Source of the DNA: a phage
Assembly (NCBI GenBank): GCA_024911895.1
Contig: GCA_024911895.1_3948.1
Direction: 5' to 3' (one strand)
DNA length: 64,000 nucleotides
Below are positions 54,168 to 62,080 of this stretch, one piece after another. Under the pieces are notes generated by a model. That model searched no databases. It was not told the origin of the DNA and saw only the letters and a list, made by a program, of their open reading frames with translations. Both the position numbers and the translations under genes were made by a program. The first letter of the stretch is position 1, and each line of letters opens with the position of its first letter.

Positions 54168-59551
<5,384 letters not shown>

Positions 59552-59552
<1 letters not shown>

Positions 59553-59791
59553 TACATTTTTCCTGCTCTTCTAAGTTCGTTGTAAGCAATTTCCTCTTTA
59601 TACGACCTCTGAATCTCAAGAAATTGTCTCAATGATAATAAATCAGAGAATGTCATAGCAAAGAGTTGGTCAAGTGTTTCTTTACACCCTTCCATACCAT
59701 AAATAGCAAGCACAAATTTCATCTCGTCTGCTTCTTCATAGGTTGCCTCTACAGCAGCATCAGTTAGTGGTGTCTGTAGAGTGTTACCCAT
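59552..59791 (-). CDS. tail assembly chaperone, -1 frame partner (probable C-terminal extension of a frameshift fusion)
   Basis: lies in the -1 frame relative to 59794..60192; that frame is open from the slippery site to this ORF; no RBS before its ATG. Confidence 0.5.
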
Positions 59792-59793
59792 GT

Positions 59794-60192
59794 TTACTGA
59801 GAAGTTAGGCTTTTGAAAATGCTTGCTTCGAAAAAACTTCCGAAGTTTGCCTCCAGCGCAAATGCTAAGTAATCAATAAATTCACCGTAATTTGCTTGGA
59901 AGTAGGTATCGATATTTAGTGGGAAGTCATCAACAGTTGCTCCTTGAAATAGTAGGTTAGCCATTTCTTCAAGGTTAATTTCTTCAATTCTGTCAAAACA
60001 AGCTTCAACAAGTTCTTTAAATGGAACCATTGGAGCTTCTTTCTTACCCTTGTCAGTCAGACTTGACAGCATCTGTGCAAAAGTTGGAACAACAATTTTA
60101 CCCAACTTCATAGACATCTTAATACCATCTCTTGCCCCAAGCAGAACGATATTTACTTTCTTACCATTAATTACTCTAGCTTCTGTTTTCAT
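59794..60192 (-). CDS. tail assembly chaperone (gpG/E-like)
   Basis: 132 aa, between the tail tube and tape measure genes; contains the slippery site near its 3' end. Confidence 0.5.
   Translation of the reverse strand: MKTEARVINGKKVNIVLLGARDGIKMSMKLGKIVVPTFAQMLSSLTDKGKKEAPMVPFKELVEACFDRIEEINLEEMANLLFQGATVDDFPLNIDTYFQANYGEFIDYLAFALEANFGSFFEASIFKSLTSQ
59830..59836 (-). other. candidate -1 programmed ribosomal frameshift site, heptamer T_TTT_TTC (codons AGT TTT TTC)
   Basis: heptamer is in the zero frame of 59794..60192, 11 codons before its stop; -1 frame reads FFRSKHFQKPNFSVN-MGNTLQTP.. without a stop. Confidence 0.5.
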
Positions 60193-60213
60193 TGTGATTC
60201 CTTAATACTTTTA

Positions 60214-60253
60214 AAAGAAACAAAAAAGGGGAAGACCTTTTAAAGTCTCCCCC
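60214..60253 (-). terminator. intrinsic terminator after the tail tube gene (9-bp stem with one mismatch, then U-run)
   Basis: plus GGGGAAGAC-CTTTTAAA-GTCTCCCCC at 60228..60253; minus-strand T-run at 60214..60227. Confidence 0.55.
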
Positions 60254-60265
60254 TTATAGGATTTA

Positions 60266-60712
60266 TTAAACACTTGACGCTGGAATTGTAGAAGTGTAGT
60301 CTAGCTTCTCACAACCAAAAATCCAAGTCTTAGAGTTCTGGTCACGACCAAGTTCAATCTGTGGTAGTTCCTGCAACCAAGCGTTAATACCAGTTGCCAG
60401 AACAGAGCCTGATGGGTCGTAGATTACGAAGTTAGAAGAGATATCTTCTTCAAGTTCCATATTGTCTTGTTTAGCTTGAATTGCAGAAAGCATCTGGTTA
60501 GAGAGAGAAGTCTGCATTAGCTCAATCTCGATAGTACCTGTCTTGTCTGCATTTCTTGTCAGAGCAACTTGACCACCTGCACCTACAACTGGTGTCACAA
60601 GTGGTGATGTTCTCTGTAGACGTAAGAATGAGTCTGGGGCAAAGCCTTCAATGGCAATACCATTCCAGCTACACACAACGTCTTTAGGGGAATATTGCTG
60701 ATACATAGCCAT
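60266..60712 (-). CDS. tail tube protein
   Basis: 148 aa, directly downstream of the sheath gene and followed by a strong terminator. Confidence 0.5.
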   Translation of the reverse strand: MAMYQQYSPKDVVCSWNGIAIEGFAPDSFLRLQRTSPLVTPVVGAGGQVALTRNADKTGTIEIELMQTSLSNQMLSAIQAKQDNMELEEDISSNFVIYDPSGSVLATGINAWLQELPQIELGRDQNSKTWIFGCEKLDYTSTIPASSV

Positions 60713-60727
60713 TCCAATTTACCTCTA

Positions 60728-62080
60728 TTATTCGTAAGCCACTGTACCTTTCAAGTCAACATCCAAGATAGCTCCTGCTAAGATACCTGAGAAGGTAACG
60801 TCTTTCAGGATACGAGCTTTCTTGTCTGCTAAAGCAACTTGAGAGGCTTTAGGAACATTAACTGTGTAAGATGACAGGAAGTTTCTGTTGACTGCTCTTT
60901 GCAGAGAGGTTTCAATGACTTGACGAATACGGGTAATACCAGTATCATCATAAGTAATCTTACCACCCTTCTGGTTAATTAGCAAGTCTCTCAGAGAAGT
61001 TTTCAGGTCTGATTCTAACCAGTCAACACCACGGATGATATCAATCCATTCCCCACCAGAAGTAATCCCTCTACGAACCACTGGAACACCACCATCAAGG
61101 TCAATAAAGTTACAGTGACGTGCATCTAAAGCTGACTTCTGAATACTTGTCAGAGGTCTCTTATTAGCTGGCTGTAGAGAAGCAGCTACACCAGTTAGCT
61201 GTGCATTGCCCCAAGCAATCGAACCTGCATCATATGGAGCACCATAAGCAGTGTATGCCATTTCTGGATAGTCTTCTGCTGCTGTGTGATGCCACAAGCA
61301 AACGGTACGAGTGTACTGACTCTTAGCAAGCTGTGCTGGAACATCATTTGCACTAGCTAATTCTGTACCTTGCAGTGCTGTTACATCAGAGTTAGCTGTA
61401 AAGAAAATCTTCTTACGAGCTTGAATCTCAGAAGCCATTGCTAAGACAAACTGTTGAGTTCTGTCTTCTGCTGCAATGAAATACCAGTCAGTTGAATAAG
61501 CTTCAATAGCTGCCAGAGCAGTTGATGCTGTATCAGCAGTTGTACTTGCAATTGACACTGTTTGTGCTGTAGTGGTAACCTTCACGAAGTCGTTCACACC
61601 AGCTTTGGTGATTACCATTGTTGCTGAACCGCCAGCACCAGTTACATTGACAGTGACCTTATCTTTAATTGTTGGGTCAGCTTCAATCTGTGTTTTAAGC
61701 TGCTGTAACACCTTCTCAGCAGTATCTTCTGACTGTGAAGTGTACTGGAATGGTTGAGAAACTCCACCGCCCACAGCTACAGTTAAAGAATAATTGGTGC
61801 TTTCAGTAACAGAGTCAGGAATTGATACAGTGTACTGCATAGCACGTCTACCAATATAAAGCTGGGTTACTTTAGGAGTCTGACTCCAAAGTTGTTTAGC
61901 AGCCTTATATGCAGCAGAATTTTCATCGAAATCTTCAGCAACTTCAGTTAAGGAAGTGTAACCACGGACTCTTTCTTCAAAGTTATCTGTTGAAGCTAAA
62001 AATAGTGGTAGCCCAAAACCTTCTCTTGTAGTTCCTGCGGTGTTCAATGTAATATCTACATTAACAATTGGATTCCACAT
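60728..62080 (-). CDS. tail sheath protein
   Basis: 450 aa, directly upstream of the tube gene in a myovirus-type tail module. Confidence 0.5.
   Translation of the reverse strand: MWNPIVNVDITLNTAGTTREGFGLPLFLASTDNFEERVRGYTSLTEVAEDFDENSAAYKAAKQLWSQTPKVTQLYIGRRAMQYTVSIPDSVTESTNYSLTVAVGGGVSQPFQYTSQSEDTAEKVLQQLKTQIEADPTIKDKVTVNVTGAGGSATMVITKAGVNDFVKVTTTAQTVSIASTTADTASTALAAIEAYSTDWYFIAAEDRTQQFVLAMASEIQARKKIFFTANSDVTALQGTELASANDVPAQLAKSQYTRTVCLWHHTAAEDYPEMAYTAYGAPYDAGSIAWGNAQLTGVAASLQPANKRPLTSIQKSALDARHCNFIDLDGGVPVVRRGITSGGEWIDIIRGVDWLESDLKTSLRDLLINQKGGKITYDDTGITRIRQVIETSLQRAVNRNFLSSYTVNVPKASQVALADKKARILKDVTFSGILAGAILDVDLKGTVAYE

What the first reader, a model, noticed from the sequence alone, without database searches (positions are those of the whole stretch)
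59552..60192. Programmed -1 frameshift candidate in the tail assembly chaperone pair upstream of the tape measure gene
Near the 3' end of ORF 59794..60192 the zero-frame codons AGT TTT TTC form the slippery heptamer T_TTT_TTC at 59830..59836. The -1 frame is open from there through the ATG of ORF 59552..59791, which has no ribosome-binding site of its own and lies 2 nt past the upstream stop. A -1 slip would make a fusion of roughly 210 aa, the conserved chaperone arrangement of tailed phages.
Basis: partly seen in the sequence, partly recalled or inferred. Interest (0 to 1): 0.55.

Follow-up and report, generated by a model that had tools for sequence, protein, structure and literature searches.

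The report
Known phage tail-chaperone −1 frameshift site
This is the standard programmed −1 ribosomal frameshift that lets a Felix O1-like phage make a short and a long tail assembly chaperone from one gene; the signal is real and strongly conserved, but it is already annotated and published for close relatives, so it is ordinary.

Summary
The window is a Felixounavirus (Felix O1-like myovirus). On the minus strand the order is sheath, tube, terminator, TAC ORF (59794-60192, Pfam Phage_TAC_15), 79-aa ORF (59552-59791), tape measure gene. AGT TTT TTC gives an in-phase T_TTT_TTC at 59836-59830. The −1 frame is open from there to 59555, which predicts a 213-aa fusion.

- **More than chance:** in 31 divergent clusters (about 25-98% aa identity, GC 0.35-0.65) the heptamer is always T_TTT_TTY, fixed at synonymous positions (P about 1e-13).
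- **Open −1 frame:** it has no stop in 804 codons between heptamer and zero-frame stop, where about 69 are expected.
- **ORF2 start:** it has no Shine-Dalgarno sequence, and its ATG is lost in a near-identical relative and in Erwinia phages.
- **Possible stimulator:** a GGAGG lies 13 nt upstream and appears selected family-wide. No downstream structure is present in this phage.

The same fusion, with the same junction, is deposited for Salmonella phage Meda (AXY86324.1). It is also annotated for Moogle, mentioned in the Moogle, Michonne and Mijalis genome announcements, and covered by a 2025 comparative paper on Andersonviridae. I found no experimental proof. Verdict: supported, already known, low interest.

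The parts
60226..60255 (-). Rho-independent terminator hairpin (13 bp) plus T-run between the tube gene and the chaperone gene. Context only: it probably lowers transcription into the TAC/TMP genes.
   Evidence: scan. Annotated as a terminator at the same place in wV8 and Meda.
60199..60203 (-). Shine-Dalgarno sequence (AAGGA) of the chaperone ORF
   Evidence: -6.1 kcal/mol with the anti-SD, the median for the window.
59794..60192 (-). TAC-N (gpG-like) tail assembly chaperone ORF, 132 aa, the zero-frame product
   Evidence: Pfam PF21822 E 1e-19. PHROG 1613/3840, 'tail assembly chaperone'.
59850..59854 (-). Internal Shine-Dalgarno-like GGAGG, 13 nt 5' of the heptamer; inferred 5' stimulator of the -1 shift
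   Evidence: Anti-SD duplex of -9.3 kcal/mol, stronger than more than 90% of real ribosome-binding sites in the window. No start codon follows it. GAG is used at this Glu codon in 24 of 28 clusters, against 8.3 expected. The 9-14 nt spacing rule comes from PMC5009743.
59830..59836 (-). Slippery heptamer T_TTT_TTC (U_UUU_UUC) in X_XXY_YYZ phase, encoding the invariant Phe120-Phe121
   Evidence: U_UU.U_UU.Y is among the efficient E. coli motifs (PMC4066793).
59794..59829 (-). Dual-coding overlap: zero frame EASIFKSLTSQ*, -1 frame (R)SKHFQKPNFSVN. It lies inside a 41-nt island (59847..59807) that is 92.7% identical to Erwinia phages that are otherwise too diverged for blastn to align.
59552..59830 (-). 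-1 frame segment decoded after the slip (TAC-C, 'T domain'; 92 codons plus TAA at 59554..59552). The fusion TAC-NC is 213 aa.
   Evidence: PHROG 4963. Identical in construction to AXY86324.1 of phage Meda.
59552..59791 (-). ORF2 as called mechanically (79 aa, ATG with no SD); best read as the 3' part of the frameshift product rather than a separate gene
   Evidence: ATG to ATA in L016. No start codon in Kolesnikvirus.
57324..59552 (-). Tape measure protein gene (742 aa); its start overlaps the -1 frame stop (TAATG)
   Evidence: Pfam PF20155 TMP_3.
60266..62080 (-). Tail tube (60266..60712) and tail sheath (60728..62080) genes, upstream context of a contractile-tail module
   Evidence: Annotations of relatives.

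Best explanation

**Proposed mechanism**
- Most ribosomes translate 60192..59794 and release the 132-aa chaperone (TAC-N).
- A small fraction slips back one nucleotide when the two tRNA-Phe occupy UUU-UUC of U_UUU_UUC (59836..59830). Both tRNAs re-pair on UUU-UUU.
- Those ribosomes continue in the -1 frame to 59555 and make a 213-aa protein (TAC-NC) with junction ..NFGSFF-RSKHF...
- The GGAGG 13 nt upstream probably pairs with the 16S rRNA anti-SD of the elongating ribosome and raises the slip rate, as in dnaX and IS elements. This phage has no downstream stem-loop, so the efficiency is probably low, in the range of a fraction of a percent to a few percent.
- By analogy with lambda, both forms coat the tape measure protein through the shared N domain. 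The rare C-terminal domain recruits the tube protein, and neither form stays in the virion.

**Status of each step**
- Shown here: the sequence anatomy, the family assignment and the evolutionary conservation of the signal.
- Inferred: that slippage actually occurs, its efficiency, the role of the GGAGG, and the protein functions.
For: **Anatomy**
- Heptamer, phase, open -1 frame and 213-aa fusion.
- ORF1 is Phage_TAC_15, and the tape measure gene lies directly downstream. PHROG 'tail assembly chaperone' for both parts.

**In-window control**
- It is the only one of 75 in-phase heptamers with a long -1 extension past the stop.

**Comparative evidence**
- The same heptamer at the same Phe-Phe is found in Felixounavirus, Mooglevirus, Suspvirus, Kolesnikvirus, Pectobacterium phage Arno162 and the roughly 29%-identical Vequintavirinae.
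- All 80 IMG/VR loci have TTTTTT[C/T] (73 C, 7 T).
- In 31 clusters the preceding codon always ends in T and the first Phe codon is always TTT. Each has P of about 1e-13 given the locus's own codon usage, including genomes of 60-65% GC.
- The -1 frame has 0 stops in 804 codons between heptamer and zero-frame stop. The same frame upstream has 8.6% stops per codon (P = 3e-32), and it usually closes 1-13 codons before the heptamer.

**ORF2 start**
- It has no SD.
- Its ATG is ATA in L016, and it is absent in Kolesnikvirus.
- First ATG positions are scattered from 2 to 173 nt past the stop, or there is none at all.

**SD-like GGAGG**
-. The 9-14 nt spacing rule.

**Motif shiftiness in E. coli**
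- UUUUUUC gave 0.12% alone, 0.89% with the IS911 stimulators and 7.6% with the IS3 pseudoknot.

**Independent annotation**
- The Meda fusion AXY86324.1 equals the junction predicted here.
- Joined CDS in Meda and Moogle.
- Papers.
Against: - **No experimental evidence.** I found none for this phage group in the library searched.
- **No downstream stimulatory structure in this phage.** The 60 nt 3' of the heptamer fold at -3.4 kcal/mol, z = +1.2.
- **Low intrinsic efficiency.** UUUUUUC without a stimulator gave only about 0.12% in an E. coli reporter.
- **A coupled restart is conceivable.** In Felixounavirus an ATG sits 2 nt after the stop, so some independent translation of the 79-aa part by termination-reinitiation cannot be excluded. 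Most GenBank records annotate two separate genes.
- **The GGAGG evidence has limits.** The motif overlaps conserved codons (L-E-A) and is absent in Kolesnikvirus and a few other clades. The 31 clusters are not phylogenetically independent, so the P values are optimistic.
- **Ascertainment.** The IMG/VR set was found through a peptide pattern containing FF. Conservation of Phe-Phe itself is therefore by construction in that set; only the codon choice is informative.
Confidence: 0.9

Rival explanations
1. There is no recoding. ORF2 (59791..59552) is a separate small gene, translated by termination-reinitiation (translational coupling) at the ATG 2 nt after the ORF1 stop. The heptamer is just the codons for Ser-Phe-Phe.
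For: - The ATG lies 2 nt past the TAA stop.
- Most database records annotate two separate CDSs.
- Coupled restarts can work with little or no SD (general knowledge; also mentioned in PMC5009743).
Against: - It has the weakest SD complementarity of all 57 long ORFs on the strand.
- The ATG is ATA in a near-identical relative, L016.
- There is no in-frame start codon before the conserved domain in Kolesnikvirus. The first-ATG position is not conserved, or there is none, across clusters.
- This model does not explain why the -1 frame is stop-free from the heptamer to the stop in 31 of 31 clusters.
- It also does not explain why T and TTT are fixed at synonymous sites.
Confidence: 0.05
2. The long form is made by transcriptional slippage. 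RNA polymerase adds one U in the T6 run, and ordinary translation of that mRNA subpopulation yields the same 213-aa protein.
For: - The site is a homopolymeric T6 run, T7 in 7 of 31 clusters.
- A weak hairpin followed by a T-run, a terminator-like pattern, was flagged at 59856..59840.
- Phage CL1's record carries T7 and an in-frame fusion, which shows that this run is prone to polymerase or sequencing slippage.
- The protein product would be indistinguishable from that of a ribosomal frameshift.
Against: - Efficient slippage in bacteria is described for runs of about 9 A/T (PMC5009743). Here the run is 6.
- In 24 of 31 clusters the run is capped by C rather than lengthened.
- The run is always in the X_XXY_YYZ phase. 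The T before TTT is kept in 31 of 31 clusters, and no case has TTT TTT without it. Phase is irrelevant for RNA polymerase but essential for tandem tRNA slippage.
- The selected SD-like element at 13 nt fits a ribosomal mechanism.
- The terminator-like hit is at the level expected by chance.
Confidence: 0.04
3. The juxtaposition is a coincidence with no function: the heptamer and the open -1 frame are not used.
For: X_XXY_YYZ heptamers are common: 75 in-phase ones occur in long ORFs of this window.
Against: - The heptamer, its phase and the open -1 frame are conserved across 31 clusters down to about 25% identity.
- It is the only heptamer in the window with a long extension.
Confidence: 0.01

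Closest known systems
Tape measure chaperone frameshift product of Salmonella phage Meda (AXY86324.1, MH586731) and of Citrobacter phages Moogle, Michonne and Mijalis (Felix O1-like; PMC4319497, PMC4591319, PMC5543628)
   Same: - Same gene and same heptamer.
- Same junction GSFF|RSKHF. The Meda fusion is exactly the sequence built by the slip proposed here, and the window's slip region is nucleotide-identical.
- Same 213-aa length (212 aa in Moogle).
   Different: Only a few amino-acid substitutions elsewhere in the protein. Those annotations are also predictions, not experiments.
Conserved 'GTTTTT' -1 PRF site of TAC-N genes in Vandenendeviridae and 231 Andersonviridae phages (phage Adele paper, PMC12846349, 2025)
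   Same: Felixounavirus belongs to Andersonviridae. The invariant motif they report is the 5' part of the G-T_TTT_TTC found here, and their argument (an uninterrupted -1 frame) is the same.
   Different: In the passages I read, that paper does not mention the codon-level test, the Vequintavirinae and metagenomic clades analysed here, or the upstream GAGG/GGAGG element.
Phage lambda gpG/gpGT (Levin 1993; Xu, Hendrix and Duda 2004, 2013, 2014) and phage P2 gpE/gpE+E'
   Same: - A gene pair directly upstream of the tape measure gene.
[quoted passage not shown]
- A short abundant product and a rare long product that share the N domain (PMC5009743).
- P2, like this phage, is a myovirus with the order sheath-tube-chaperone-TMP (my own knowledge).
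   Different: - No detectable sequence similarity was tested here; they belong to different Pfam TAC families.
- The lambda heptamer is G_GGA_AAG (my own knowledge), not U_UUU_UUC.
- Product ratio and function are measured for lambda and unmeasured here.
E. coli dnaX and IS3/IS911-type -1 frameshift cassettes
   Same: A slippery heptamer plus an internal Shine-Dalgarno-like stimulator 9-14 nt upstream. U_UU.U_UU.C is one of the heptamers used by IS elements.
   Different: dnaX and the IS elements also use a 3' stem-loop or pseudoknot and reach much higher efficiencies. No such structure is present downstream in this window.

Membership tests
gpG/gpGT-type tail assembly chaperone pair with programmed -1 frameshift (Xu, Hendrix and Duda 2004 definition) | Located between the major tail/tube gene and the tape measure gene | tested here: met
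   Order is sheath 60728-62080, tube 60266-60712, TAC 59794-60192, ORF2, TMP 57324-59552.
gpG/gpGT-type tail assembly chaperone pair with programmed -1 frameshift (Xu, Hendrix and Duda 2004 definition) | The second reading frame is in the -1 frame relative to the first, overlaps its 3' end, and is open from the slip site | tested here: met
   The -1 frame is open 59872..59555. The overlap with ORF1 is 76 nt, 37 nt of it 3' of the heptamer.
gpG/gpGT-type tail assembly chaperone pair with programmed -1 frameshift (Xu, Hendrix and Duda 2004 definition) | A slippery X_XXY_YYZ heptamer in zero-frame phase inside the overlap | tested here: met
   T_TTT_TTC at 59836..59830. The motif is shift-prone in E. 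coli.
gpG/gpGT-type tail assembly chaperone pair with programmed -1 frameshift (Xu, Hendrix and Duda 2004 definition) | The arrangement is conserved in diverged relatives | tested here: met
   31 of 31 clusters keep the heptamer, its phase and the open -1 frame.
gpG/gpGT-type tail assembly chaperone pair with programmed -1 frameshift (Xu, Hendrix and Duda 2004 definition) | Both the short and the frameshifted long protein are made in vivo at a set ratio, and both are needed for tail assembly | not testable with these tools
   This needs western blot, mass spectrometry or genetics. No such data were found in the literature searches.
gpG/gpGT-type tail assembly chaperone pair with programmed -1 frameshift (Xu, Hendrix and Duda 2004 definition) | The products bind the tape measure and tube proteins and are absent from mature virions | not testable with these tools
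   Biochemical property; inferred by analogy only.
Pfam PF21822 Phage_TAC_15 | Whole-protein score above the curated gathering threshold | tested here: met
   71.7 bits against a cutoff of 22, E 1e-19, covering residues 9-124 of 132.
dnaX/IS-type SD-stimulated -1 frameshift cassette | Internal Shine-Dalgarno-like sequence 9-14 nt 5' of the shift site | tested here: met
   GGAGG at 59854..59850 with a 13-nt spacer and -9.3 kcal/mol against the anti-SD. GAG is enriched at this codon family-wide. Its function is not demonstrated.
dnaX/IS-type SD-stimulated -1 frameshift cassette | Stable stem-loop or pseudoknot 5-9 nt 3' of the shift site | tested here: not met
   The downstream 60 nt fold at -3.2 to -3.4 kcal/mol, z = +0.9 to +1.2. 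The nearest stable hairpin starts 48 nt downstream, and from the sequences its 5' arm appears not to be conserved in Moogle. Some distant clades do have such hairpins.
Transcriptional slippage site | Long homopolymeric A/T run (about 9 or more in bacteria) | tested here: not met
   The run is T6 in the window and at most T7 in relatives. The threshold is as stated in PMC5009743.

The most novel reading that the evidence does not exclude
The most novel reading my evidence does not exclude has three parts:
- Across this whole chaperone family (PF21822: Andersonviridae, Vequintavirinae and many uncultured myovirus-like phages), the slip site is locked into an invariant N-[FY]-[GS]-[SC]-F-F protein motif as U_UUU_UUY.
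- The site is driven mainly by a selected 5' Shine-Dalgarno-like GAGG/GGAGG exactly 13 nt upstream. That would be a dnaX-style 5' stimulator used as the principal, and in Felixounavirus the only, enhancer of a phage tail-chaperone frameshift.
- Different clades have added or lost 3' hairpins to tune the ratio of short to long product.
Probability: 0.45. Interest if true: 0.3.

Novelty: already known. Interest (0 to 1): 0.12.

Why it matters
- **Annotation.** Most Felixounavirus records, including the RefSeq entry for wV8, still list the 79-aa ORF as a separate gene. They should carry a joined CDS of 213 aa.
- **Biology.** It adds nothing new in kind. It is one more instance of the conserved chaperone frameshift of long-tailed phages, and one already recognised in this very group.
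- **Small added value.** The codon-level evidence shows that the heptamer, and an upstream SD-like GAGG, are under selection across very divergent relatives. That gives a clean, testable frameshift cassette without a 3' structure in an E. coli/Salmonella phage used for therapy and typing.

Tried and rejected
- **Downstream stimulatory structure.** I folded 59829..59770 and 59860..59740 and 60-nt windows in 31 clusters. There is nothing significant in the window. The hairpin at about 59781..59747 is 48 nt away and does not look conserved in Moogle (sequences), so I rejected it as a stimulator.
- **Hairpin enclosing the slip site.** The 8-bp hairpin CUUCGGAA/UUUCGAAG contains the slip site itself, so a ribosome at the site would already have melted it. 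It is not conserved outside Ounavirinae. Rejected.
- **Terminator-like hit at 59856..59840.** It is at the level expected by chance. Rejected as a terminator.
- **Solved structures.** There is no significant PDB relative by sequence. The fusion's best hit has E = 0.52. The profile's best hit is 5ir0_A 'ORF19' at E = 0.17, aligned over the full length but not significant. Not followed.
- **Pfam for ORF2.** No family matched.
- **Literature.** No paper in the library reports experimental detection of the fusion in Felix O1-like phages. Vladimirov et al. 2022 could not be read. As summarised, its T4-like case uses two gene copies, which does not apply here.
- **Not run.** I did not run structure prediction or the large protein searches. 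The family assignment was already unambiguous, and the tool would only accept alignment rows from the window or from the search for homologous proteins, so the comparative alignment (A1) could not be submitted.

Full report
**What the window is.** The 1.5 kb around the finding is 98% identical to about 210 Felixounavirus genomes (KhF3, skuden, wV8, UAB_Phi87 and others). It is 80% identical to Mooglevirus and Suspvirus. Felixounavirus is in Ounavirinae, family Andersonviridae. All relevant genes are on the minus strand:

| Feature | Coordinates | Evidence |
|---|---|---|
| Tail sheath | 60728-62080 | DUF3383 |
| Tube | 60266-60712 | KPP10_Orf10 family |
| Terminator hairpin, 13 bp | 60255-60226 | scan |
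| ORF1, 132 aa | 59794-60192 | Pfam PF21822 Phage_TAC_15, E 1e-19; PHROG 'tail assembly chaperone' |
| ORF2, 79 aa | 59552-59791 | no Pfam; PHROG 4963 'tail assembly chaperone' |
| Tape measure gene | 57324-59552 | TMP_3 |

**Checking the observation.** Reading the minus strand and recomputing frames confirms every coordinate.
- ORF1's codons 119-121 are AGT TTT TTC, so T_TTT_TTC lies at 59836..59830 in the X_XXY_YYZ phase.
- The -1 frame is open from 59872 to 59555.
- ORF2's ATG (59791) is in that frame, 2 nt after ORF1's TAA.
- A slip yields 121 + 92 = 213 aa.
- The junction is ..NFGSFF|RSKHFQKPNFSVNMGNT...
- ORF2 has no ribosome-binding site. Its best pairing with the anti-SD is +0.7 kcal/mol, the weakest of 57 long ORFs on this strand (median -6.1; ORF1 -6.1; TMP -5.1).
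- As an in-window control, I looked at all 75 in-phase X_XXY_YYZ heptamers in ORFs of at least 100 aa. Only this one has a -1 frame that runs far beyond the zero-frame stop: 80 codons, against 20 for the next best (one search had a frame-offset bug and is superseded).

**Comparative evidence from named phages.** I read the locus in GenBank relatives. In all of the following, T_TTT_TTC sits at the same two invariant Phe residues and the -1 frame is open to just before the tape measure gene:
- Felixounavirus, Mooglevirus and Suspvirus;
- Erwinia Kolesnikvirus (43% aa identity);
- Pectobacterium phage Arno162;
- the 140-kb Vequintavirinae (phiTE, UPEC06, 18-1-2), which are only about 29-32% identical.

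In Kolesnikvirus there is no in-frame start codon before the conserved C-terminal domain. Roscha1's annotators left that 236-nt stretch empty. In Erwinia phages, blastn aligns only a 41-nt island, 59847..59807, at 92.7% identity. That island is the slip site plus the dual-coding overlap.

**Comparative evidence from metagenomic loci.** A scan of IMG/VR returned 80 loci.
- All 80 have TTTTTT[C/T], 73 with C and 7 with T. All have a -1 extension of 69-123 codons, while the +1 frame is usually short.
- That set was ascertained through a peptide pattern containing FF. Only codon choice is therefore informative, not the Phe-Phe itself.
- After clustering to 31 groups (less than 80% similar, GC 0.35-0.65), the codon before Phe-Phe ends in T in 31 of 31, and the first Phe is TTT in 31 of 31.
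- Given each locus's own codon usage, each of these has a probability of about 1e-13, including in 60-65% GC phages that otherwise prefer TTC.
- The -1 frame contains no stop in 804 codons between heptamer and zero-frame stop. The same frame upstream has 8.6% stops per codon (about 69 expected, P = 3e-32). It usually closes 1-13 codons before the heptamer, which marks the heptamer as the entry point.
- The first ATG in the -1 frame lies anywhere from 2 to 173 nt past the stop, or is absent. In one near-identical Felixounavirus contig (L016) the ORF2 ATG is ATA.
- The clusters share ancestry, so the P values are optimistic, but the conclusion does not depend on their exact size.

**How it most likely works.** This is tandem slippage of two tRNA-Phe from UUU-UUC to UUU-UUU.
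- In E. coli reporters, U_UU.U_UU.Y is among the efficient heptamers and is used by IS elements (PMC4066793). Its supplement gives UUUUUUC as 0.12% alone, 0.89% with the IS911 stimulators and 7.6% with the IS3 pseudoknot.
- I found no 3' stimulatory structure in this phage. The 60 nt after the site fold at -3.4 kcal/mol, z = +1.2.
- The only stable hairpin nearby starts 48 nt downstream and does not look conserved in Moogle (sequences). The 8-bp hairpin seen contains the heptamer itself, so it cannot act from downstream.
- There is a GGAGG at 59854..59850, 13 nt 5' of the heptamer. It pairs with the anti-SD at -9.3 kcal/mol, stronger than more than 90% of the real ribosome-binding sites of the window, and no start codon follows it.
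- The chance of a GGAGG at 9-14 nt from a given site is about 0.2%.
- That spacing is the one reported for SD-like stimulators of -1 shifts, 9-14 nt (PMC5009743).
- Family-wide, the Glu codon at that position is GAG in 24 of 28 clusters. Only 8.3 are expected from the usage of Glu codons followed by G in the same loci (0 of 200,000 simulations reached 24).
- I therefore infer a 5' SD-like stimulator and a low efficiency, from a fraction of a percent to a few percent. This is inferred, not shown, and the motif is absent in Kolesnikvirus.
- Function follows the lambda model: the short form is abundant, and the long form is rare and links the tape measure to the tube protein (PMC5009743). That is by analogy only.

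**Rivals.**
- **Separate translation of ORF2 by coupled reinitiation.** The adjacent ATG and most database annotations suggest this. It is contradicted by the missing SD, the non-conserved or absent start, and the conserved open frame back to the heptamer. It could still contribute a little in Felixounavirus.
- **Transcriptional slippage on the T6 run.** This would give the same protein. However, the run is short (about 9 is the figure given in PMC5009743) and is capped by C in 24 of 31 clusters. It is always held in the ribosomal X_XXY_YYZ phase, which a polymerase would not care about.
- **Chance.** This is excluded.

**Comparison with what is known.**
- The exact fusion is already in GenBank. 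AXY86324.1, 'tape measure chaperone' of Salmonella phage Meda, 213 aa, equals the sequence obtained by slipping at this heptamer. The Meda slip region is nucleotide-identical to the window.
- Meda and Moogle carry joined CDSs.
- The Moogle, Michonne and Mijalis genome announcements mention the chaperone frameshift.
- A 2025 paper on phage Adele reports an invariant GTTTTT near the 3' end of TAC-N genes in Vandenendeviridae and in 231 Andersonviridae, with the same open-frame argument.
- The finding is therefore correct but already known as a prediction. What remains unreported, as far as the searched library shows, is experimental confirmation and the upstream SD-like element.

**Verdict.** Observation confirmed, apart from the one-residue error in the junction peptide. 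Interpretation supported. Novelty: already known. Interest is low (0.12). The practical consequence is an annotation fix: a joined 213-aa CDS instead of a free-standing 79-aa gene.

Noticed in passing
L009 (Escherichia phage CL1, OK040806.1), the T-run in the TAC gene, homologous to window 59836..59831: The record has seven T instead of six. ORF1 and ORF2 are therefore fused in frame and annotated as a single 213-aa 'tape measure chaperone'. This is either a homopolymer sequencing error or a mutant that makes only the long form.
   Followed up: partly
L016 (IMG/VR UViG_3300045988_004167), homologous to window 59791..59789: This near-identical Felixounavirus contig reads ATA where the window has the ORF2 ATG.
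   Followed up: partly
L007 1270..1505 (Erwinia phage Roscha1); also L042, L043: In Kolesnikvirus the region homologous to ORF2 has no in-frame start codon before the conserved domain. It is left unannotated in Roscha1.
   Followed up: yes
L066, L080, L081, L088, L072, L091 (IMG/VR relatives), 3-63 nt after the heptamer: Several distant clades of the same chaperone family have strong hairpins starting a few nt 3' of the heptamer (z = -2.7 to -4.4). Some share a CGGUAUUGG 5' arm, which also encodes G-I-G in the zero frame and R-Y-W in the -1 frame. The window lacks any such structure.
   Followed up: partly
window 60226..60255 (minus strand): A strong rho-independent terminator (13-bp stem, T-run) lies between the tube gene and the chaperone gene. 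The chaperone and tape measure genes therefore lie downstream of a terminator within the tail module (annotated in wV8 and Meda).
   Followed up: no
window 59822..59845 (minus strand): An 8-bp hairpin, CUUCGGAA-GUUU-UUUCGAAG, has the slippery heptamer in its loop and 3' arm. It is not conserved outside Ounavirinae, and its significance is unknown.
   Followed up: partly
window 59797..60192 (ORF1 protein): The exact 132-aa sequence is on record only as a 'hypothetical protein' of an E. coli assembly (EJR6128098.1, an 87-kb contig). The window's phage was therefore probably deposited as part of a bacterial genome assembly.
   Followed up: no
alignment A1 (TAC-N profile) against PDB: The best PDB hit is 5ir0_A, 'Uncharacterized protein ORF19'. 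It aligns over almost the full length (8-124 to 12-128) but at E = 0.17. It may be a solved relative of this chaperone family.
   Followed up: no
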